Assembly (NCBI GenBank): GCA_964633565.1
Contig: CAZWGW010000001.1
Span: 1-39,777 of the forward strand
Direction of reading: 5' to 3'
Origin: an uncultured Planctomycetaceae bacterium
Lineage (GTDB): Bacteria > Planctomycetota > Planctomycetia > Planctomycetales > Planctomycetaceae
DNA: 39,777 nt
The position numbers were made by a program, and so were the translations under genes. Numbering within the stretch: position 1 is the stretch's first letter; each line of letters begins with the position of its first letter. The notes under the pieces were generated by a model. It saw only the letters and a program-made list of their open reading frames with translations, was not told where the DNA came from and made no database searches. Positions 1 through 35,660 of the stretch are shown piece by piece.

Positions 1-2388
1 ATTCATGACTCCTCTCCCGACGCTTACGAGCAACTCGTCGATCGACTGCTGTCCTCGGAACATTACGGCGAGCGCTGGGGCCGTCACTGGCTCGATGTCG
101 CGCGCTACGGCGAAAGCCAGGGGTTTGAGCGGGACAAGGTGCGGCCCAATGCGTGGCCCTATCGGGACTGGGTGATCCAGGCGCTGAATCGCGACCTGCC
201 GTACGACGAATTCGCGCGGCTGCAGCTTGCCGGCGACGTGCTGCACCCCGAAGACGCCGCAGCCGTCACGGCCACCGGGTTCCTGGTCGCTGGTCCCTAC
301 GACGAAGTCGGCCAGCAGCAACAGAGCGCGGCGATGAAGGCCGTCGTCCGCGAGGACGAGTTGGAAGATATCATCGGCACCGTGGGGCAGACGTTTCTGG
401 GACTGACCGTCAATTGCGCGCGGTGCCACGATCACAAGTTCGATCCCATCACGCAGAGAGAGTATTACCAGTTGTCGGCCGCGCTCGGCGGGGTCCGGCA
501 CGGCGAGCGGAAGGTCTCTTCACCGGCGGTCCGGCAAGAAATCGAGGAATTGAGCGCCCGTCGCAAGGACGTGTCTTTGCGACTCAAGTCGCTGGAACAA
601 CCGGCGATCGCGGCGATCCGCGCGGAACAGCAGCGCACAATCCTCACGACTCCGCCGCCGCGGCCGATTGCGCGCTGGACGTTTGGTGGACGTTTCGACG
701 ACGACAGCCGCACGCTGCGCGGAATACCGCAGGGAACGGCGCGGACTCGTGACGGCCAGGTCGAACTTGACGGCAAATCGGCATACGTCGAGACCGCTCC
801 TCTCGACCGGGAACTTCGCGCGAAGACGCTCGAAGCATGGGTCCAATTGGCCAGCCTGGAGCAGCGTGGCGGCGCCGTCGTCAGCGTGCAGACCGTCGAC
901 GGCAACGAGTTCGACGCGATCGTCTTCGGCGAACGCGAACCCCGGAAGTGGATGGCCGGCAGCAACGGGTTCGAGCGCACGCGCAGCTTTGACGGTCCGG
1001 ACGAAACCGAGGCGGCGACGTCCCTGGTACACGTCGCGATCGTCTACGATGAAGACGGAACGATTACCGCGTATCGCAACGGCGTCCCGTACGGTACGCC
1101 CTATCAGAGCGACGGTCCGATCACATTTCCGGCCGGTCGGACGCAGGTACTGTTCGGGCTGCGCCATGGGACGTCCGCCGGCGGCGACCGGCTGCTGTCC
1201 GGGGCGATCGACGAAGCGCGGCTCTACGACCGGGCGCTCTCGGCCGCCGAGGTCGCCGCCTCCTCAACCCGGCACAAGCATGTACCGCCAGCGCTGATTC
1301 TGGCGGCCATGTCGGACGAGCAGCGCTCCGAATTCGAGTCGTGCCGCGACGAACTGGCGCGCATCGAATCGCGTCTGGGGGAACTGCAGAACCTGTCCGT
1401 CTACGCCGTCTCGCCGCGCCAGCCGGACGTGGCACATGTCCTGCTCCGCGGAAACCCGGCGACTCCGGCAGACATTGTCGTTCCAGCGGGCATCGGGTCA
1501 CTGGCAGGTGTGAACGCGGACTTCGGTCTGTCATCCGACGCACCGGAAGCCGATCGGCGAGTGCGTCTGGCCTCATGGATCACGGACGCACGCAACCCGC
1601 TGCTTGCACGCGTCATCGTCAATCGTGTCTGGCATTACCATTTCGGCGTCGGGCTCGTCGACACGCCGAATGACTTCGGCTTCAACGGCGGCCGGCCGTC
1701 ACATCCCGAACTGCTCGACTTTCTGGCGTCGTATCTGATCGAGAACGGCTGGAGTCTGAAGCAACTGCACCGCCTGATTGTCACCTCGGCGACGTATCGT
1801 CAGGCGTCGCTGCACCGGGCGGACTGCGCCGCCGTCGATGCCGGGAACCGGCTGCTGTGGCGAAAGGACCCGATCCGACTGGACGCCGAAACGCTGAGAG
1901 ACGCGATTCTCTCCGTCGCCGGAGAACTCAATCCCCAGGTCGGGGGGCCTCCGTACCAGGATTTCAGGACGTTTACCTTCAACTCGCAGTTTTATGAGAT
2001 GATTGATCCGGTCGGCCCGGAGTTCCACCGACGTACGATCTACAGGACCTGGCTCCGCAGCGGTCGTAACCCACTGCTCGATACGTTTGACTGCCCCGAT
2101 CCCTCGACAACGTCGCCGAAACGCGCCGTCACAACGACGCCCGTGCAGTCGCTGGCGCTGCTCAACAACTCGTTCGTGCTGCGAATGGCGGACGCGTTTG
2201 CGGAGCGCGTGATTCAGCAGGCCGACGCAGACGCGCCCGCCCAGGTCCGCGAGAGCTTCCGGCTTGCGTATGGGCGCGATCCGGCGGCTGACGAACTTGA
2301 ACGACTCAGCCGCTTCGTCGACGACTTTCCGCTGCCGGCATTGTGCCGGGTGGTGTTCAACAGCAATGAGTTTTTGTACGTGGAATGA
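1..2388 (+). CDS. PSCyt2 (DUF1549) / LamG-like / PSD1 (DUF1553) domain protein, 5'-truncated by the window edge
   Basis: Frame 1 is open from nt 1 (IHDSSPDAYEQLVDRLLSSEHYGERWGRHWLDVARYGESQGFERD, a DUF1549-type signature). The GTG at 139 in the ORF track is therefore not the true start. The central block LDGKSAYVE..AWVQL..DEARLYDRALSAAEV looks like a concanavalin/LamG-type module. The C-terminal NRVWHYHFGVGLV..FDCPDPS..TTTPVQSLALLNN is the DUF1553 signature. Stop is TGA 2386-2388. Confidence 0.85.
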   Translation: MHDSSPDAYEQLVDRLLSSEHYGERWGRHWLDVARYGESQGFERDKVRPNAWPYRDWVIQALNRDLPYDEFARLQLAGDVLHPEDAAAVTATGFLVAGPYDEVGQQQQSAAMKAVVREDELEDIIGTVGQTFLGLTVNCARCHDHKFDPITQREYYQLSAALGGVRHGERKVSSPAVRQEIEELSARRKDVSLRLKSLEQPAIAAIRAEQQRTILTTPPPRPIARWTFGGRFDDDSRTLRGIPQGTARTRDGQVELDGKSAYVETAPLDRELRAKTLEAWVQLASLEQRGGAVVSVQTVDGNEFDAIVFGEREPRKWMAGSNGFERTRSFDGPDETEAATSLVHVAIVYDEDGTITAYRNGVPYGTPYQSDGPITFPAGRTQVLFGLRHGTSAGGDRLLSGAIDEARLYDRALSAAEVAASSTRHKHVPPALILAAMSDEQRSEFESCRDELARIESRLGELQNLSVYAVSPRQPDVAHVLLRGNPATPADIVVPAGIGSLAGVNADFGLSSDAPEADRRVRLASWITDARNPLLARVIVNRVWHYHFGVGLVDTPNDFGFNGGRPSHPELLDFLASYLIENGWSLKQLHRLIVTSATYRQASLHRADCAAVDAGNRLLWRKDPIRLDAETLRDAILSVAGELNPQVGGPPYQDFRTFTFNSQFYEMIDPVGPEFHRRTIYRTWLRSGRNPLLDTFDCPDPSTTSPKRAVTTTPVQSLALLNNSFVLRMADAFAERVIQQADADAPAQVRESFRLAYGRDPAADELERLSRFVDDFPLPALCRVVFNSNEFLYVE

Positions 2389-2434
2389 ATGGTACGGGTG
2401 GACCAGCATCACGCACTGGGAGTAGAATGATCCC

Positions 2435-2704
2435 ATGTCAGTGACGTTCGAATCGACGCTTCTGGATGACCTTCTGGACTCATTGGCCGCTTGCATGACA
2501 CCCGAATTCGCTCGACGAATGGCGACTTTGCAGGCGAGCCCTGCCGTCCAGAACCGATTTGATCAACTTGCCGGAAAGAGTAACGAAGGCCAACTGACGC
2601 CCGCCGAGGCAGATGAGTACGACGCGCTGCTGCGTACTCTCGATCTGATTACCATGCTGCAATTGAAGGCACAAAAGCTGCTTGATGAGGAATCGAGTGA
2701 CTGA
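2435..2704 (+). CDS. 89-aa acidic, predicted all-helical protein; candidate immunity/antitoxin-like partner of the downstream HNH nuclease
   Basis: Start is ATG 2435. The stop TGA 2702-2704 shares its A with the ATG of the next gene (TGATG). The C-terminal half GQLTPAEADEYDALLRTLDLITMLQLKAQKLLDEESSD is charged and heptad-like, with no catalytic motif. The coding call rests on ORF length, translational coupling and the lower GC it shares with the HNH gene. Confidence 0.55.
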   Translation: MSVTFESTLLDDLLDSLAACMTPEFARRMATLQASPAVQNRFDQLAGKSNEGQLTPAEADEYDALLRTLDLITMLQLKAQKLLDEESSD

Positions 2705-3108
2705 TGGAGCCCGGCGCCCGAAAACGCGTGGTGGCTCGCGCGGGGGACCGATGTGAATTCTGTCGCATCGCTCAGATTCATGTCCCCTACCTGCGATTCT
2801 GGCTGGAGCACGTAATTCCGCGACAGCACGGAGGCAGCGACGGATTGGAAAACCTGGCGCTGTCTTGTCCCTGGTGTAACCGCCGTAAGGGAACCAATCT
2901 TTCGGCCATCGATCCCGAAACGCGCCAAGTTGTGCTGCTGTTCAATCCGAGGACGCAATCGTGGGACGATCACTTTCGATTCGACGGACTGGTAATCGTC
3001 GGATTGACCGCAACCGGGCGGGCAACGGCTGAGTTGCCGGCTCTGAACGATGAACGTCGTCTTCACATCCGTGCGCTCGCTGAGTCAGGATCTTCACCGC
3101 TGAATTGA
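2704..3108 (+). CDS. HNH endonuclease (small free-standing type, zinc-binding CxxC...CxxC)
   Basis: CEFC...EHVIPRQHGGSDGLENLALSCPWCNRRKG gives the H-N-N/H core bracketed by two CxxC pairs. The C-terminal LFNPRTQSWDDHFRFDG..IVGLTATGRAT block is typical of the short cyanobacterial/planctomycete HNH family. The stop TGA 3106-3108 overlaps the ATG at 3108 of the next gene. Confidence 0.85.
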   Translation: MEPGARKRVVARAGDRCEFCRIAQIHVPYLRFWLEHVIPRQHGGSDGLENLALSCPWCNRRKGTNLSAIDPETRQVVLLFNPRTQSWDDHFRFDGLVIVGLTATGRATAELPALNDERRLHIRALAESGSSPLN

Positions 3109-4589
3109 TGGTGATGGTAATGTCGTATTTCGATCGCAATTCGAATGGCGCTGCGGTGCCTCAGTCGCGCCGTGATTTCCTTTCCTGGACCGTTCACGGA
3201 CTCGGTAGCGCTGCCGTCGCCTCGTTGCTATTGCGGGATGGAAACGTCCTGGCGTCAACAGCCCCCGGCGAGGCCGCCGTCCCCTGGCCGCACCATCCCG
3301 CTTCTGCCAGACGCGCCATTCATATCTGCCTGTTCGGCGGCCTGAGCCAGGTCGATTCGTTCGACTACAAGCCCGAGCTCAAGAAGTTCCACGGCAGGAA
3401 ATACGGCGAGATCGATTCGGCTGACGTGTTCTTCGGCCAGATCGGCCTGCTCCGGCAGAGCGACTGGGCCTTCCGGCGGCGCGGCGAGAGCGGACTGTGG
3501 ATCTCCGAGTTGTTCCCGTACCTTGCACAAGTTGCGGACGAACTGACCGTCATCAATTCGATGTACGCCGAGACGTCGAACCACACCCCGGCGACGTTTC
3601 AGGAGAACACCGGATTTCGGCTCAACGGCTTCCCGACCGCCGGCGCATGGCTCTCCTTCGGCATGGGGGCCGAGACAGACGAGCTTCCGGCATACGTGGT
3701 CGTTCCCGACCCGCGCGGCATGCCGGCCGGAGGGTCGATCAACTGGTCCAACGGATTTCTGCCGGCCCGGCACCAGGGCGTCATCATCCGCAGCCAGGGG
3801 ACGCCGGTCGACGACCTGTTCCCCGCGCGGGACATCCCTGCCGCGACGGAGTCCGCCAGCCGCGAACTGCTCGCCGTATTGAACCAGCGGCACCTCGACC
3901 AGCGGGGCGTTGACGACGCAATGGCCGCGCGGATTCGCAGCTATGAACTGGCGGCGAAAATGCAGCTCGCCGTTCCCGACGTGACTGCCCTGGGCGGCGA
4001 GACTGCCGAGACCCATCGGCTCTACGGCATTGACCGCGATCTGACCCGTGACTTCGGCCGCAGTTGCCTCCTGGCCCGGAGGCTGCTGGAGAAGGGGGTC
4101 CGGTTCGTACAGCTCTATTCGGGGGGCGCATTCGGGTCGCCGCGCATTAACTGGGACGGCCACGAGAACCTGCTGCAGAACCACGGCCAGGAGGCCGGGC
4201 GAATCGATCGGCCGGTCGCCGGCCTGCTGGCGGACCTGCGGCAGCGCGGTCTGCTCGACGATACGCTCGTCCTCTTCACCAGCGAATTCGGCCGCACTCC
4301 GTTTACGCAGTCCGCCTCCGACGTCCTCGGCCAGGGACGGGACCACAACCAGTACGGCTTCACCGTGTGGCTGGCCGGCGCGGGGCTCAGGCATGGCATC
4401 GCGTACGGTGCCACCGACGAGATTGGCTGGAAGGCCGTCGAGCAGAAGGTACACTGGCACGACTTTCACGCCACCGTGCTGCACCTGCTGGGGATCGATC
4501 ACGAACGGCTCACATACTATCACAACGGCATTCAGCGCCGGCTGACGAACGTGCACGGCACTGTGCTCACCGACCTGCTGAATGTCTGA
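3108..4589 (+). CDS. DUF1501 domain protein (sulfatase-like fold, Tat signal), the usual partner of PSCyt/PSD proteins
   Basis: There is a twin-arginine motif SRRDFLSW near the N-terminus. Family-typical blocks are present: HICLFGGLSQVDSFDYKP, NHTPA, FTSEFGRTP..GRDHN. The ORF track starts at TTG 3105, but in-frame ATGs at 3108, 3114 and 3120 are more likely starts. Confidence 0.9.
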   Translation: MVMVMSYFDRNSNGAAVPQSRRDFLSWTVHGLGSAAVASLLLRDGNVLASTAPGEAAVPWPHHPASARRAIHICLFGGLSQVDSFDYKPELKKFHGRKYGEIDSADVFFGQIGLLRQSDWAFRRRGESGLWISELFPYLAQVADELTVINSMYAETSNHTPATFQENTGFRLNGFPTAGAWLSFGMGAETDELPAYVVVPDPRGMPAGGSINWSNGFLPARHQGVIIRSQGTPVDDLFPARDIPAATESASRELLAVLNQRHLDQRGVDDAMAARIRSYELAAKMQLAVPDVTALGGETAETHRLYGIDRDLTRDFGRSCLLARRLLEKGVRFVQLYSGGAFGSPRINWDGHENLLQNHGQEAGRIDRPVAGLLADLRQRGLLDDTLVLFTSEFGRTPFTQSASDVLGQGRDHNQYGFTVWLAGAGLRHGIAYGATDEIGWKAVEQKVHWHDFHATVLHLLGIDHERLTYYHNGIQRRLTNVHGTVLTDLLNV

Positions 4590-5354: not shown

Positions 5355-6323
5355 ATGTCGGAACGATCCGCCACTCAATACGACGTGCTGTGCGCCGGGC
5401 TGATCGTGGCCGATCATGTCTGTGCGCCGATCGCCGGCCTTCCGCCCCCAGGTGAACTCGCGATGACGGACCGGATCGATCTCACGATCGGTGGCTGCGC
5501 TTCGAACGTCGCAGTGGACCTGTCGCGGTTGGGACTGGTTGCCTGCGTGGCCGGTCGTGTGGGGGACGACGTCCTGGGGCGGCATGTCTGCAACGTGTTG
5601 GCCGCCGAAGGGGTGTCATGCGACCAGGTGCAGTTTTCGCGGACCGCCCGGACGGCGACGACCATGGTCATCAATGTCCGCGGGCAGGATCGCCGGTTCA
5701 TCCATGCGGCCGGCGCCAATGCGGAATTCACCGGGCGCGAGATCTCTGCCGACGCGATCCGGTGCAGTCGCGCCCTCTATGTCGGCGGCTTCGGCCTGAA
5801 CGCCGCGCTCAGCGGAGACAGCGTTGCGGCATTGTTCCGCACGGCGCGCTCGGCAGGTGTGGCAACCGTCCTGGACGTGGTCGTTGCGGATGAAGACGTC
5901 GGCCGGATGCTGGAGCCGGTCCTGCCACTGACCGATCTGTTCCTGCCGAATACTGATGAAGCCCGGGTCATTACAGGACACAACGAGCCGTTGGCGCAGG
6001 CCGCACACTTTCGCGAAGCGGGGTCTGCAACGGTCATTATCACCTGCGGACGAGCGGGGGCGTGGCTGATGAACCGCGAATCCACTCTGCACATCCCGGC
6101 ACATGACGTCGTCCAGGTGGACCCCACCGGCGGCGGCGATGCCTTTGTGGCCGGTTACCTGTTTGGCGTCATGAACCAGGCGCCTGTGGACGACTGCCTG
6201 CGTTACGGCTCCGCGCTGGGGGCCAGTTGCGTTCAATGCGCGGGCGCCACGACCGGCGTCTTCCGAAAAAGCGAATTGACAGAATTTGTCAAACGTCAAC
6301 GGTTACCGGTCAACCCGGTTTGA
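5355..6323 (+). CDS. PfkB-family carbohydrate kinase (ribokinase / ketodeoxygluconokinase-like)
   Basis: The N-terminus is YDVLCAGLIVADHV. GGCASNVAVDLSRLG is the diglycine region. DPTGGGDAFVAGYL is the PfkB signature 2. The ORF-track ORF begins at 4905, but homology-like sequence begins at ATG 5355 (MSERSATQYDV). Confidence 0.85.
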   Translation: MSERSATQYDVLCAGLIVADHVCAPIAGLPPPGELAMTDRIDLTIGGCASNVAVDLSRLGLVACVAGRVGDDVLGRHVCNVLAAEGVSCDQVQFSRTARTATTMVINVRGQDRRFIHAAGANAEFTGREISADAIRCSRALYVGGFGLNAALSGDSVAALFRTARSAGVATVLDVVVADEDVGRMLEPVLPLTDLFLPNTDEARVITGHNEPLAQAAHFREAGSATVIITCGRAGAWLMNRESTLHIPAHDVVQVDPTGGGDAFVAGYLFGVMNQAPVDDCLRYGSALGASCVQCAGATTGVFRKSELTEFVKRQRLPVNPV

Positions 6324-33288: not shown

Positions 33289-33783
33289 TTGGACTACCAG
33301 TTCAAACCGATTGGCAAGACCTGTGCCGCCACCGGCAAGCCGCTGCTGCCGGGGGAGCGCATCTACTCCGTCGTCGTCGAACAGAATGACGAACTCGTGC
33401 GACTCGATTTTTCGCCGCAAGGCTGGTCCGGACCGCCGGACGGGACCATCGGCCAGTGGCGGTGCGTCGTCCCGGCGCCCGAATCCAAACCCGCGACGGC
33501 CCTCGACCCGGATGCACTGCTGAGTTATTTCGAACACCTTGTCGAGGACGCCAACCCCGCTCACGACAAGCTTCGCTACGTGCTGGCGTTGTTCCTGCTG
33601 CAGAAGCGGCGACTGCGGCTCGACGGCTCGCGCATCGACGGAGTCGTGGAATACCTTCAGCTTTCCGGCTCGCGGGGCGAGGGTCCGTACGAAATCCCCG
33701 ATCAGCAACTCGCCGAATCGGAAATCCGGCAGTTGCAGGCGGAACTGAATCACTCCCTGGCGGGCGGCATGAAGGCCGCCTGA
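33289..33783 (+). CDS. hypothetical cytoplasmic protein (164 aa)
   Basis: The start is TTG, with no signal peptide or TM. It reads DYQFKPIGKTCAATGKPLLPGERIYSVV..., and the C-terminal half is helical (KLRYVLALFLLQKRRLRL...EIRQLQAELN). No family was recognised. The coding call is based on length and non-shadow-like composition. Confidence 0.5.
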   Translation: MDYQFKPIGKTCAATGKPLLPGERIYSVVVEQNDELVRLDFSPQGWSGPPDGTIGQWRCVVPAPESKPATALDPDALLSYFEHLVEDANPAHDKLRYVLALFLLQKRRLRLDGSRIDGVVEYLQLSGSRGEGPYEIPDQQLAESEIRQLQAELNHSLAGGMKAA

Positions 33784-33817
33784 CCGGGACGCCCCCGGAC
33801 ATTGATCCTGTGCACGA

Positions 33818-34885
33818 ATGGAATCTCGCATTCACACGGCAGTCGTTTACACGGTTGCGGCGATGCTCCTGCTGGCATCCAGCGGCTGCCACATCTGGGG
33901 GCTCTGGCGGCCGCGACCGGCGCCATGCGTCCTGTCTCCGACCGCCACCAAGCAGGAGATCGTCGCGCACGTCAACCGCAACGTCACTCCGCCGGGCGGC
34001 GTGCCGCTGACGGCGTGGCGCTGCCTGCAGTTGCAACTCACCCTCAATGGCATGCCGCCCGTACCCGCGACAATCGACGTCGAAGCACCGCGGCGGATGC
34101 GGATTATCGCTCACATGCCGCTCACAGCCAGCGAAATCGCCGATTTCGGGTCGAACGACGAAGGGATCTGGATGTGGGATTATCGCATGCCCGGGGTCGT
34201 GACCGTTGCGCATGAAGACCTCCCTCAAGCCCTCGCGCAGATGCAGATCCCGTTCGAGCCAGAATGGCTGATGGAAGTGCTGGGAGTCGTTCCGATCAAC
34301 GTCGACGAATTCGAGCTGGCCGTGCCGGAGACGCCGAAGAGCTATATCGAGCTCATTGCCAACCGCGATTCGCCCACCGGCGAGGCCGTGCGGCGCGTCG
34401 TGCGCATCAACCTGTGCCAGGGACGCATCCTGGAACACCGGCTTGAGAGCATGGACGGCCGCACGATTGCGTCCGCTCGCCTTGATAACTACGAACCGGA
34501 CGCCACCGGACAGTTCGTGCTGCCGCACCTTATGAGGATTGAATGGCCGGAGGCGAAAGCCGGCATGACGCTGCGGATCGGAGACATCATGGTCAACCCG
34601 CCCGCCAACAACCTGGTTTCGTGGCAGGTGCCGGACAAACCGGGGGTGCCGCGCATCGTGTTCCCTGGACGCAGGACCGTCCCGCGACCACAATCGTGGC
34701 ACGAGCCGCTGCTGCGCCAGGCGGGGGGAGAGGCGGATCCTGACGCGCCGGCCCGCATCAGATTGCGGGACGACCCTGAAGACGAGCCGCCTGCAGCGTA
34801 TTCTGAAGCAGCATCGCAATCGTCATCGGTCCCACTCCGCCGGGGACCGGCGTCAGCGCCGCGGCCTTTTCCCGCACTGCCGTGA
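33818..34885 (+). CDS. hypothetical lipoprotein (a LolA/LolB-like beta-fold is possible, by eye only)
   Basis: The signal and lipobox are AAMLLLASSGC. The body of about 250 aa has alternating beta-like segments. A Pro/Arg/Ala-rich tail runs antisense into the 3' end of folD. Confidence 0.6.
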   Translation: MESRIHTAVVYTVAAMLLLASSGCHIWGLWRPRPAPCVLSPTATKQEIVAHVNRNVTPPGGVPLTAWRCLQLQLTLNGMPPVPATIDVEAPRRMRIIAHMPLTASEIADFGSNDEGIWMWDYRMPGVVTVAHEDLPQALAQMQIPFEPEWLMEVLGVVPINVDEFELAVPETPKSYIELIANRDSPTGEAVRRVVRINLCQGRILEHRLESMDGRTIASARLDNYEPDATGQFVLPHLMRIEWPEAKAGMTLRIGDIMVNPPANNLVSWQVPDKPGVPRIVFPGRRTVPRPQSWHEPLLRQAGGEADPDAPARIRLRDDPEDEPPAAYSEAASQSSSVPLRRGPASAPRPFPALP

Positions 34886-35660
34886 AGTCGACGTCGCCCA
34901 CGAGGCGCCCGTCCGGCAGGCGATTCGTGCCGACGTCAATCACCACCGCGCCCGGCTTGACCATGTCGGCGGTGACGAAGCCGGGCCGGCCGATCGCTGC
35001 GATCAGGATGTCCGCCTCGCGCGTGACCGCCGCGATATTTCGCGTGCGGCTGTGACAGACGGTGACCGTGGCATTGGCGCCCGCCCCCTTCTGCATTAGC
35101 AGGAGCGCCAGCGGCTTGCCGACGATCTCGCTGCGGCCGAGGACGACCGCATGTGCGCCGTCGATCGTCGCCCCGCTTTCCAGGATCAGCCGCTGGCAGC
35201 CGGCCGGCGTGCAGGGCGCAAAGCGCGGCCGCCCCTGCACCATCAGGCCGACATTCTCGGGATGGAAACAGTCGACGTCCTTGAGCGGACGGACGGCGTC
35301 CAGGACCGACGTCGCGTCGATCTGTGGCGGCAGCGGGAGTTGTACGAGGATGCCGTGGACGTCGGCCTCGGTATTCAACCGCTGCACCAGATTGAGGAGT
35401 TCGGTCTGTGATGCTGCGGCCGGCAGCCGGTGCAGCGTGCTGCGGAGGCCTGCCTCCTCGCAGGCGCGCTGCTTGTTCCGCACGTAGATCGCGCTGGCCG
35501 GGTCGTCGCCGACCAGCACGGCCGCCAGGTGCGGCGTGACCCCGGTCGACTCACGGAAGGCCCGCGCCTCGTCGGAGATCTGCTGACGGATGCGCGCGGC
35601 GAGCGCTTTGCCGTCGATCAAGCGGGCCGTCAATGCGGGATTCCTCAGTGGTTGCGGCAA
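34758..35660 (-). CDS. folD: bifunctional 5,10-methylene-tetrahydrofolate dehydrogenase / methenyl-THF cyclohydrolase
   Basis: Motifs are LIDGKALAARIRQQI, PHLAVVLVGDDPASAIYVRNK, VHGILVQLPLP, VVLGRSEIVGKPLALLL and PVPGGVGPMTIAMLLQNT. The start is TTG 35660. An internal TTG at 35633 (MTARLIDGK) would give the more usual N-terminal length. Confidence 0.92.
   Translation of the reverse strand: MPQPLRNPALTARLIDGKALAARIRQQISDEARAFRESTGVTPHLAAVLVGDDPASAIYVRNKQRACEEAGLRSTLHRLPAAASQTELLNLVQRLNTEADVHGILVQLPLPPQIDATSVLDAVRPLKDVDCFHPENVGLMVQGRPRFAPCTPAGCQRLILESGATIDGAHAVVLGRSEIVGKPLALLLMQKGAGANATVTVCHSRTRNIAAVTREADILIAAIGRPGFVTADMVKPGAVVIDVGTNRLPDGRLVGDVDFTAVREKAAALTPVPGGVGPMTIAMLLQNTLQAARLQGRPAI

What the first reader, a model, noticed from the sequence alone, without database searches (positions are those of the whole stretch)
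2389..3125. Lower-GC HNH nuclease plus acidic partner cassette inserted exactly between a PSD1 gene and its DUF1501 partner, flanked by ATGGTA repeats
Established knowledge: DUF1549/DUF1553 genes in Planctomycetes are normally followed directly by their DUF1501 partner. Here two extra genes sit between them.

Seen in the sequence:
- The hexamer ATGGTA lies immediately after the PSD1 stop (2389-2394) and again in the DUF1501 start cluster (3114-3119), preceded there by ATGGTG at 3108-3113.
- Removing 2395-3113 (719 bp) would recreate TGA-ATGGTAATGTCG. That is a tight PSD1-DUF1501 junction with an intact MVMSYF start.
- This resembles a target-site duplication.
- GC is visibly lower in the cassette. 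My hand counts of three 60-nt lines are 27/60 (2641-2700), 31/60 (2941-3000) and 37/60 (2581-2640). The PSD1 gene gives 47/60 at 1201-1260.
- Both internal junctions are TGATG overlaps (2702-2706 and 3106-3110).
- TGGACC-N18-TAGAAT (2399-2428) ends 6 nt before ATG 2435. This suggests an own promoter, possibly a leaderless transcript.

The nuclease has an intact CxxC/HNH/CxxC core, and the 89-aa partner is acidic and helical with no catalytic motif.

Inference: this is a selfish homing-type or toxin/immunity (defence-like) two-gene module, not part of the host operon.
Basis: partly seen in the sequence, partly recalled or inferred. Interest (0 to 1): 0.62.

Follow-up and report, generated by a model that had tools for sequence, protein, structure and literature searches.

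The report
Inserted HNH nuclease and inhibitor-like partner
A compact, self-promoted two-gene unit (a small acidic helical protein followed by a stripped-down HNH nuclease) was inserted between two normally adjacent planctomycete genes; it belongs to a very large, unnamed family that behaves in genomes like a toxin-antitoxin pair, though nobody has tested that.

Summary
The genes, both TGATG overlaps, the promoter-like site, the lower GC and the hand counts are all as described. The ATGGTA "target-site duplication" is not supported: 21% of random junction pairs share a 6-mer, and the nearest relative with the cassette lacks it.

The insertion is real. Four sister genera have the PSD1 stop abutting the DUF1501 start. 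A relative with 84% DUF1501 identity carries the cassette at the same place, with a frameshifted HNH gene.

The pair is a conserved unit:
- 78 of 80 HNH loci from many phyla have a small same-strand ORF ending at the HNH start, and at least 68 match the partner profile.
- Neighbouring genes are unrelated from locus to locus.
- 35 plasmids carry the HNH family; no phage does.
- Cassettes 65-71% identical sit in three other contexts. Homology runs only from the -35 element to the HNH stop, with TAGAAT 6 nt before the ATG (probably leaderless).

The partner family has at least 7,064 clusters and no curated model. The HNH most resembles the HNH domain of PtuB (Septu and retron effector), but has no ATPase partner.

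This genome holds eight partner genes and only two intact HNH genes. That is the decay pattern expected of toxin-antitoxin pairs. Toxicity and binding are inferred, not shown.

The parts
1..2388 (+). 3' part of the PSD1 gene (PSCyt2/DUF1549 + Laminin_G_3 + PSD1/DUF1553), the upstream host gene; stop TGA at 2386-2388
   Evidence: Pfam PF07587 2e-89, PF07583 3e-62. Orthologues at 58-60% identity directly abut DUF1501 in G014, G003, G027 and G034.
2393..3108 (+). Inserted cassette (about 716 nt). The limits are inferred from where homology to cassettes in other contexts begins and ends.
   Evidence: Alignments A1, A6 and A7. Similarity to L136, L137 and L138 starts at the -35 element and stops at the HNH stop codon. 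GC is 57% against 65% in the flanks.
2399..2428 (+). Sigma-70-like promoter: TGGACC (-35), 18-nt spacer, TAGAAT (-10). The -10 ends 6 nt before the ATG, so the mRNA is probably leaderless.
   Evidence: Only promoter-like hit in 1800-3800. TGGAC and TAGAAT are the conserved blocks of the spacer in L014. The -10 and its distance are conserved in L136-L138 and in L099, L088, L062, L057 and L055 (6 nt) and L058 (8 nt), with no Shine-Dalgarno motif.
2435..2704 (+). Partner gene: 89 aa, pI 4.2, four predicted helices. Proposed nuclease inhibitor (antitoxin-like).
   Evidence: No Pfam, NCBIfam, PADLOC or PHROG match. AF2 pLDDT 91. The family has 7,064 clusters at E<=1e-3. Homologues lie directly upstream of HNH in at least 68 of 80 loci.
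2702..2706 (+). TGATG stop/start overlap between partner and HNH (translational coupling)
   Evidence: Sequence. The same overlap is present in L014 and L136, and an ATGA overlap in paralogue C360.
2704..3108 (+). HNH (His-Me finger) nuclease: 134 aa, pI 8.9, CxxC...CxxC zinc finger, E35-H36/N50/N59, and a conserved C-terminal half (DPxT..LFNPRTQxWxxHF..GRAT..N..R). Proposed toxin or effector.
   Evidence: PF01844 2e-9, PF14279. PADLOC PtuB 6e-9 over residues 6-116. AF2 pLDDT 95.8. The best whole-length fold matches are PtuB of retron Eco7/Ec78 and of Septu. Catalytic columns are conserved in 31 homologues.
3106..3120 (+). Junction with DUF1501: TGATG overlap and the ATGGTGATGGTAATG start cluster. 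By alignment to L014 the likely DUF1501 start is ATG 3120; 3108 and 3114 remain possible.
   Evidence: No terminator is predicted between the HNH gene and DUF1501.
2389..2394 (+). Left ATGGTA copy (right copy at 3114-3119). Judged a chance repeat, not a target-site duplication.
   Evidence: 21% of random junction pairs share a 6-mer. Absent from L014.
3108..4589 (+). DUF1501 gene, the downstream host gene
   Evidence: PF07394 7e-136. Orthologues at 77-84% identity.

Best explanation
The segment is a self-contained, horizontally mobile two-gene module of the toxin-antitoxin type.

How it probably works:
- One promoter, probably giving a leaderless mRNA, drives both genes.
- The first gene encodes a small acidic four-helix protein. 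The second, translationally coupled to it, encodes a PtuB-like zinc-finger HNH nuclease.
- The acidic partner is proposed to bind and block the basic nuclease. When the partner is lost, degraded or displaced, the nuclease cuts nucleic acid (DNA, or tRNA as retron-Eco7 PtuA-PtuB does) and arrests the cell.
- This would give addiction and/or abortive-infection defence.

The module was inserted once between PSD1 and DUF1501 in an ancestor of this lineage and has been inherited there since. It now sits in line with DUF1501.

Shown: the insertion, the conserved pairing, mobility between contexts, the conserved promoter, intact catalytic residues and the decay asymmetry. Inferred: binding, inhibition, toxicity, substrate and trigger.
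For: Insertion:
- The PSD1 stop abuts the DUF1501 start in G014, G003, G027 and G034.
- The cassette lies at the same site in L014, whose DUF1501 is 84% identical.

Dedicated pair:
- 78 of 80 HNH loci across Planctomycetota, Chloroflexota, Cyanobacteria, Acidobacteriota and others have a same-strand small ORF ending at the HNH start. At least 68 match the partner profile at E<1e-3.
- All 10 apparent HNH-only cases also have a divergent partner-type ORF upstream.
- There is no recurrent third gene: 153 different Pfam families among 130 neighbours.

Mobility:
- Cassettes 65-71% identical lie in three unrelated contexts, sharing only the stretch from promoter to stop codon.
- The distribution is patchy: about 5 of 201 Planctomycetota genomes have a convincing match (E<=3e-9), and 6 more have only borderline matches.
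- Single genomes carry many copies: 8 in the own-genome ORF scan here and 10-11 in two others.
- 35 plasmids carry the family; no phage does.

Decay asymmetry:
- This genome has 8 partner genes but only 2 intact HNH genes. At C190 the catalytic core is deleted, at C6 and C1007 the gene is truncated, and at C15, C452 and C70 it is absent.
- L014 has a 1-nt deletion in the first CxxC while its partner gene is intact.
- In ten other genomes, 36 partner genes go with 18 full, 8 damaged and 10 absent HNH genes.

Other:
- The charges are complementary (pI 4.2 against 8.9).
- Copies sit beside PIN and DUF4160/DUF2442 pairs.
- PtuA-PtuB is toxic unless restrained (PMC12673091).
Against: - There is no experimental or structural evidence that the two proteins bind or that the HNH is toxic.
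- The 89-aa form has no recognisable DNA-binding domain for autoregulation. The N-terminal extension of the longer forms gave no ribbon-helix-helix match in Pfam or PDB searches.
- No published HNH type II toxin-antitoxin of this kind was found in full-text searches.
- Stops inside some HNH copies in metagenome-assembled genomes could be assembly errors.
- Partner genes without HNH could equally mean the partner has a second, independent role.
Confidence: 0.6

Rival explanations
1. Self-mobilising (homing-like) nuclease cassette. The HNH cuts short intergenic spacers and the promoter-partner-HNH unit is copied into the break. The partner would protect the host or tune the nuclease.
For: - The insertion lies precisely between two co-oriented conserved genes, with empty sites in relatives.
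- The composition is lower in GC.
- The same cassette subfamily occurs in four contexts with sharp limits. In three of them the upstream gene's stop lies only 42-49 nt before the partner ATG, and 0-30 nt remain after the HNH stop.
- No transposase, integrase or repeats accompany it.
Against: - There is no target-site duplication and no similarity between insertion sites.
- The 134-aa protein is only the HNH domain, with no added DNA-recognition module.
- No phage hits and no intron or other RNA family.
- Paralogues 30-48% identical lie at unrelated sites in one genome.
- HNH decays while the partner persists. This is the opposite of what a nuclease-driven element predicts for its accessory gene.
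Confidence: 0.12
2. Non-toxic nuclease with a positive or regulatory subunit. The HNH would be a McrA/type IV restriction-like or repair nuclease. The small protein would be its specificity, activating or transcription-regulating partner, not an inhibitor.
For: - Source annotations call some homologues McrA.
- In Septu and retron systems, PtuB works only with a partner (PtuA), which is required for activity.
- Longer partner forms carry an N-terminal extension that could bind DNA.
Against: - Partner genes are frequently kept next to deleted or truncated HNH genes, or alone. An intact HNH was never seen without an upstream partner-type ORF.
- Many diverged copies per genome and plasmid carriage fit addiction modules better.
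- An acidic partner with no DNA-binding fold fits an inhibitor better than a DNA-recognition subunit.
Confidence: 0.15
3. Functional part of the PSD1-DUF1501 operon, that is, host-specific accessory genes.
For: Same strand, tight packing, a TGATG overlap with a possible DUF1501 start, and no terminator.
Against: - Orthologous operons lack the two genes.
- The same cassette sits next to queC and other unrelated genes elsewhere.
- Neighbours across 68 loci are unrelated.
Confidence: 0.02

Closest known systems
PtuB, the HNH effector of Septu (PtuAB) and of type I-A retrons (Retron-Eco7/Ec78)
   Same: - Best whole-length structural matches: 9vhl_F (TMq 0.61), 8eea_G (0.56), 9nnb_J (0.51), over about 145 aligned columns.
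- PADLOC PtuB profiles hit residues 6-116 at E=6e-9.
- The four-cysteine zinc finger around the catalytic His is the same as described for PtuB (PMC12673091).
   Different: - No PtuA ATPase is nearby.
- The protein ends where PtuB's HNH domain ends, so it lacks the PtuA-binding C-terminal domain.
- It is paired with an 89-aa acidic helical protein encoded upstream.
- Scores are far below family-level similarity.
Type II toxin-antitoxin modules (antitoxin gene first, overlapping toxin gene; for example VapBC)
   Same: Two small overlapping genes with the presumed neutraliser first, their own promoter, a patchy multi-copy distribution, plasmid carriage, neighbourhood with other such pairs, and orphan partners with degraded nucleases.
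   Different: - The toxin fold is an HNH nuclease, for which no characterised type II family was found.
- The partner family has no curated model, and this short form has no DNA-binding domain.
- Nothing has been tested.
Colicin E9 DNase / Im9 immunity pair
   Same: From general knowledge: an HNH-type DNase domain of about 130 aa neutralised by an acidic helical protein of about 85 aa. This is the same logic and size class.
   Different: - Colicin DNases lack the CxxC zinc finger and are secreted toxin domains, with the immunity gene downstream.
- No sequence or fold match to Im proteins was found.
AcrIIC1 bound to the Cas9 HNH domain (PDB 5vgb)
   Same: A precedent that a small protein can switch off a Cas9/McrA-type HNH domain by binding it directly. 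These HNH domains are fold matches of the core.
   Different: It is a phage anti-CRISPR, unrelated to the partner, and is not encoded with its target.
Free-standing HNH homing endonuclease genes of phages
   Same: An HNH gene wedged into a short spacer between conserved genes, present or absent between relatives.
   Different: No extra DNA-binding modules, no phage occurrence, an obligate upstream partner, and multiple unrelated sites.
YnzC / DUF896 (UPF0291) helical hairpin of Bacillus subtilis
   Same: The partner's conserved core (R..LL.K...G.LT..E..EL) aligns weakly with YnzC: Foldseek probability 0.96 over 37 residues, PDB profile E=0.06, and Pfam DUF896 E=1.7e-4 for paralogue C6.
   Different: All scores are below the curated thresholds. 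YnzC is not next to a nuclease, and the resemblance may be only that of a simple hairpin.

Membership tests
Type II toxin-antitoxin module | Two adjacent, co-transcribed small genes, commonly overlapping, with the pairing conserved across genomes | tested here: met
   TGATG overlap. 78 of 80 HNH loci have the upstream ORF and at least 68 are homologous to the partner. All 10 residual cases also have one.
Type II toxin-antitoxin module | The toxin arrests growth when expressed alone, and the antitoxin neutralises it | not testable with these tools
   Needs expression experiments. The indirect evidence is that HNH genes decay while partner genes persist.
Type II toxin-antitoxin module | Direct toxin-antitoxin protein complex | not tested
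The only hint is the charge complementarity.
Type II toxin-antitoxin module | The antitoxin carries a DNA-binding domain for autoregulation | tested here: inconclusive
   The 89-aa form is only a helical bundle. Longer forms have an N-terminal 'ITLxVPDELAxRL' extension, but no ribbon-helix-helix match in Pfam or PDB.
Type II toxin-antitoxin module | Patchy, multi-copy, horizontally mobile distribution, including plasmids | tested here: met
Septu (PtuAB) | PtuA ABC/SMC-like ATPase encoded next to the HNH gene | tested here: not met
   The neighbours are PSD1 and DUF1501. No recurrent ATPase among 130 neighbours.
Septu (PtuAB) | PtuB-type HNH domain with a four-cysteine zinc finger | tested here: met
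   PADLOC PtuB E=6e-9. Fold TMq 0.51-0.61. C17/C20/C55/C58.
Septu (PtuAB) | PtuB C-terminal helical domain that binds PtuA | tested here: not met
   The protein aligns to PtuB profile positions 48-153 of 216 and then ends. The PtuB C-terminal domain is residues 153-216.
Free-standing HNH homing endonuclease | Site-specific presence/absence at one conserved target, with a nuclease recognising the empty site | tested here: inconclusive
   Empty sites exist. But the same cassette subfamily lies in unrelated sites with no shared flank sequence. Cleavage is untestable here.
Free-standing HNH homing endonuclease | Additional DNA-binding modules, and a phage, intron or intein setting | tested here: not met
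   There is only the extended HNH domain. No phage matches. No RNA family.
Transposon-like insertion | Target-site duplication and/or terminal inverted repeats | tested here: not met
   ATGGTA is at chance level and absent from L014. No terminal inverted repeats.

The most novel reading that the evidence does not exclude
The promoter-partner-HNH unit is itself a minimal mobile element. The PtuB-like nuclease would break short spacers just after stop codons, and the 0.7-kb unit would be copied in without a transposase, integrase, repeats or duplication. The partner would keep the nuclease harmless once resident. This would explain the razor-sharp limits of the unit and its flush fit between genes in four independent contexts.
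Probability: 0.08. Interest if true: 0.8.

Novelty: new variant of a known kind. Interest (0 to 1): 0.55.

Why it matters
If the partner does inhibit the nuclease, this is a very large two-gene nuclease/inhibitor family. It has at least 7,064 clusters at 50% identity and spans at least eight phyla, including model cyanobacterial plasmids. It has no Pfam, NCBIfam, PADLOC or PHROG model for the partner, and no paper describing it was found.

It would show that the Septu and retron effector nuclease also exists in a stripped-down form, controlled by an 89-aa protein instead of an ATPase or a reverse transcriptase with msDNA. That would offer a simple system for studying how PtuB-type nucleases are restrained and what they cut.

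This window adds a clean natural history: a dated insertion with empty sites, a conserved leaderless promoter, and several stages of nuclease decay within one genome.

Tried and rejected
- Target-site duplication: rejected.
- Terminal inverted repeats or other long repeats around the cassette: none.
- Structured RNA or intron: only one sub-threshold snoRNA hit.
- Operon-function reading: rejected by the empty sites and the foreign contexts.
- Ribbon-helix-helix assignment for the N-terminus of long partner forms: not confirmed by Pfam or by a PDB profile search. It remains only an impression from the sequence pattern.
- Word-indexed homologue search with the 89-aa partner found only 2 proteins. 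The profile search was needed.
- The search for related loci with the 31-sequence HNH alignment failed for lack of a conserved stretch. A closer 8-sequence alignment worked.
- Phage link: none (PHROG hits cover the generic HNH core only).
- dN/dS between the window and L014: synonymous sites of the cassette are saturated (dS 2.9 or undefined, against 0.9-1.2 in the flanking genes). No conclusion on relaxed selection was possible.
- The DNA of the 92%-identical relative (P0007) was unavailable. Whether its HNH is broken could not be settled.
Full report
**What is in the sequence**

The window starts inside a PSD1-type gene (PSCyt2, Laminin_G_3 and PSD1 domains) that ends with TGA at 2386-2388. 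A DUF1501 gene runs from 3108-3120 to 4589. Between them lie two ORFs:
- an 89-aa ORF at 2435-2704;
- a 134-aa ORF at 2704-3108.

The two share a TGATG stop/start overlap, and a second TGATG links the HNH stop to a possible DUF1501 start. TGGACC-N18-TAGAAT at 2399-2428 is the only promoter-like site in 1800-3800.

The cassette has 57% GC against 65% in the flanks. Its GC3 is 0.59 and 0.61, against 0.73-0.82 in the four neighbouring genes. That is about the 5th percentile of this genome's long ORFs.

**The repeat**

ATGGTA does occur at 2389 and 3114. However, 21% of random pairs of 30-nt windows at this spacing share a 6-mer. The right copy is part of an ATGGTGATGGTAATG start cluster. Neither copy is present in the relative that carries the cassette at the same site. 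Removing 2395-3113 leaves two copies, not one. No terminal inverted repeats exist. I therefore treat the "duplication" as chance.

**The insertion is real**

Best matches of the DUF1501 protein in 60 related genomes identify the orthologous locus. In G014, G003, G027 and G034, a PSD1 orthologue (51-60% identity) ends 0-55 nt before the DUF1501 start, with nothing in between. G009 has an inorganic-pyrophosphatase-like gene at that junction instead.

L014 is a closer relative (GCA_973786685.1; DUF1501 84% identical). It has the cassette at the same place, followed by the same redoxin and PfkB genes. The left junction is recognisably the same (TGAAT..ACG.GTGGAC), so a single ancestral insertion is likely.

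In L014 the partner gene is intact (68% identity). The HNH gene has a 1-nt deletion inside the second cysteine codon of the first CxxC. The same deletion is in a Logan contig (L015), which may not be independent.

**The pair is a conserved unit**

The HNH protein has the Pfam HNH and HNH_5 domains. It also has a conserved C-terminal half (DPxT..LFNPRTQxWxxHF..GRAT..N..R). A scan of one genome per species returned 214 confirmed relatives. The 80 kept come from:
- Planctomycetota
- Chloroflexota
- Cyanobacteria
- Acidobacteriota
- Gammaproteobacteria
- Bacteroidota
- Deinococcota
- Firmicutes

.

In 78 of the 80, a same-strand ORF of 45-212 aa (most 65-150) ends at the HNH start. The other two lack upstream sequence. 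A profile built from six partner sequences matched at least 68 of these ORFs at E<1e-3.

In ten genomes searched with both profiles, ten full-length HNH genes had no partner hit at E<=1e-5. All ten still have a 119-245-aa upstream ORF that matches the partner profile weakly (E from 4e-9 to 0.01). In those genomes 26 of 36 partner genes are followed by an HNH gene or fragment.

The immediate neighbours of 68 modules belong to 153 different Pfam families, with no recurrent third gene.

**The partner family is large and unnamed**

The partner matches nothing in Pfam, NCBIfam, PADLOC or PHROGs. RefSeq labels it "hypothetical protein" on Nostoc PCC 7120 pCC7120alpha and Synechocystis PCC 6714 pSYLA.

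A profile search of 1.84 billion cluster representatives found 7,064 clusters at E<=1e-3 and 2,508 at E<=1e-10.

The conserved core is R..LL.K...G.LT..E..EL....-helix. The N-terminus varies:
- a short helical lead, as here;
- an "ITLxVPDELAxRL" extension;
- a third type, seen upstream of the C933 copy

.

The AlphaFold model is a four-helix protein (pLDDT 91). Its only fold resemblance, and a weak one, is to the YnzC/DUF896 hairpin.

**The nuclease**

The model is very confident (pLDDT 95.8). Its core matches the HNH domains of Cas9, IscB, McrA and Gme. The only matches that span the whole protein are PtuB of retron Eco7/Ec78 and of Septu (TMq 0.51-0.61). This agrees with the PADLOC PtuB hits over residues 6-116.

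Alignment to the AceCas9 HNH places the catalytic residues as follows:

| Residue here | Role in Cas9 |
|---|---|
| E35-H36 | Asp-His |
| N50, N59 | the two Asn |

C17/C20/C55/C58 form the zinc finger that PMC12673091 describes for PtuB. In that paper PtuB has an HNH domain (residues 1-152) and a PtuA-binding C-terminal domain. PtuA-PtuB is toxic and cleaves tRNA-Tyr. The protein here corresponds to the HNH domain only. No ATPase gene is nearby.

**Mobility and promoter**

Cassettes with 65-71% HNH identity and 89-aa partners lie in three other settings:
- after queC (L136);
- two further, different flanks (L137, L138)

.

Aligned with the window and L014, similarity begins at the -35 element and ends at the HNH stop codon. 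TAGAAT or TAAAAT lies 6 nt before the ATG in all five, with no Shine-Dalgarno motif.

Six of eight further members of this subfamily show a -10 box close to the start codon. It ends 6 nt before the ATG in five of them and 8 nt before in one. The longer forms instead have a leader with a Shine-Dalgarno motif. A leaderless bicistronic mRNA is therefore a conserved trait of this subfamily.

In the window, L014, L136 and L137, the stop of a co-oriented upstream gene lies only 42-49 nt before the partner ATG. Only 0-30 nt separate the HNH stop from the next gene.

The family occurs on 35 plasmids, mostly of cyanobacteria, and in no phage record. In two of those plasmids the pair lies beside a site-specific integrase gene.

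Among 201 Planctomycetota genomes only about five have convincing partner homologues (E<=3e-9). Six more have only borderline matches, with E from 2e-4 to 9e-4.

**Decay pattern**

A six-frame profile search of the window's own genome gave eight partner genes:

| Contig | State of the HNH gene |
|---|---|
| C1 (this window) | intact |
| C360 | intact |
| C6 | truncated at about residue 71 |
| C190 | internal deletion of the catalytic core |
| C1007 | 51-aa fragment |
| C15 | absent |
| C452 | absent |
| C70 | absent |

C6 lies next to a PIN-domain gene. C452 lies next to a DUF4160/DUF2442 pair. Together with L014, and with the 8 damaged and 10 absent HNH genes in the ten other genomes, the pattern is clear. 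The nuclease is never found without a partner-type gene, but the partner often survives the nuclease. That is what is expected if the nuclease is harmful and the partner protective.

**Interpretation**

The best reading (about 0.6) is a toxin-antitoxin-type nuclease/inhibitor module. Whether its benefit is addiction or abortive-infection defence is open.

A homing-like, self-inserting element (about 0.12) is not excluded by the sharp limits and tight wedging. It is disfavoured for four reasons:
- the nuclease has no recognition domain;
- the family is absent from phages;
- the insertion sites are unrelated;
- the nuclease decays while the partner persists.

A non-toxic nuclease with an activating partner (about 0.15) is disfavoured by the same asymmetry.

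No paper describing this pair was found. Other agents of this scan described the same kind of pair in other genomes and reached similar readings. Those are AI notes, not independent evidence.

**Limits**

- Binding, toxicity, substrate and trigger are all inferred.
- Synonymous divergence of the cassette between the window and L014 is saturated, while the flanking genes are not. This may reflect weak codon bias, or cassette exchange at the same site. I could not decide between the two.

Noticed in passing
L050 (G009:C497) 5591-6245, the orthologous PSD1-DUF1501 junction: In one related genus a 182-aa gene that looks like an inorganic pyrophosphatase sits between PSD1 and DUF1501. This junction has therefore accepted different inserts in different lineages. 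The pyrophosphatase identity is from my reading of the sequence, not from a family search.
   Followed up: partly
own genome C190:9520-9729 (-): A 69-aa mini-gene overlapping the partner's end joins the HNH N-terminus (..CEYC..) directly to the C-terminal tail (..GRVTIDVLRIN..). The whole catalytic core is deleted but the frame is kept open.
   Followed up: partly
own genome C6:21832-24003: The third partner/HNH copy lies in a small island with a PIN-domain gene preceded by an 82-aa ORF, an ORF6N-domain gene, and a duplicated about 30-aa C-terminal segment (..AIAAVLR(E/Q)LMEKP..) that replaces the HNH C-terminal half.
   Followed up: partly
own genome C452:1013-1913 and C1007:1262-1683: Two nearly identical 89-aa partner genes lie on different contigs. 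One is followed by a 51-aa HNH fragment. The other has no HNH and is followed by a DUF4160/DUF2442 pair.
   Followed up: partly
P0229 (305 aa), P0177 (612 aa), P0111/P0112 (about 190 aa); own genome C70:12837-13871: The partner domain also occurs fused to other sequence:
- an unassigned 220-aa C-terminal region;
- the end of a 612-aa protein that looks like a TPR protein (my reading; no family search was run);
- tandem duplications;
- a 344-aa ORF here whose N-terminus looks membrane-spanning (my reading).
The domain may be a reusable binding module.
   Followed up: no
L136:1220-2646 and own genome C15:11813-12869: Two unrelated copies sit next to 7-deazaguanine (queuosine) pathway genes. A full cassette lies right after queC, and an orphan partner lies right before a queE-like gene (queE identity is from my reading of the sequence). 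This may be coincidence.
   Followed up: no
window 2435-3105 versus L014 213-882: Synonymous divergence of the cassette genes is saturated (dS 2.9 or undefined), while the flanking DUF1501 and PfkB genes give 0.9-1.2. This reflects either weak codon bias or replacement of the cassette by a related one at the same site.
   Followed up: partly
own genome C933:1088-1785: An HNH copy of this family, with a premature stop, is preceded by a 120-aa ORF of a different partner type (..GEALDAL....LIIVQQ..). That type recurs upstream of HNH genes in other phyla (L142, L143) and matches the partner profile only through its C-terminal helices.
   Followed up: partly
L134 (Nostoc PCC 7120 pCC7120alpha 64268-66193) and L135 (Synechocystis PCC 6714 pSYLA 33453-34902): On both model-cyanobacterium plasmids the partner/HNH pair lies directly beside a site-specific integrase gene.
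   Followed up: no
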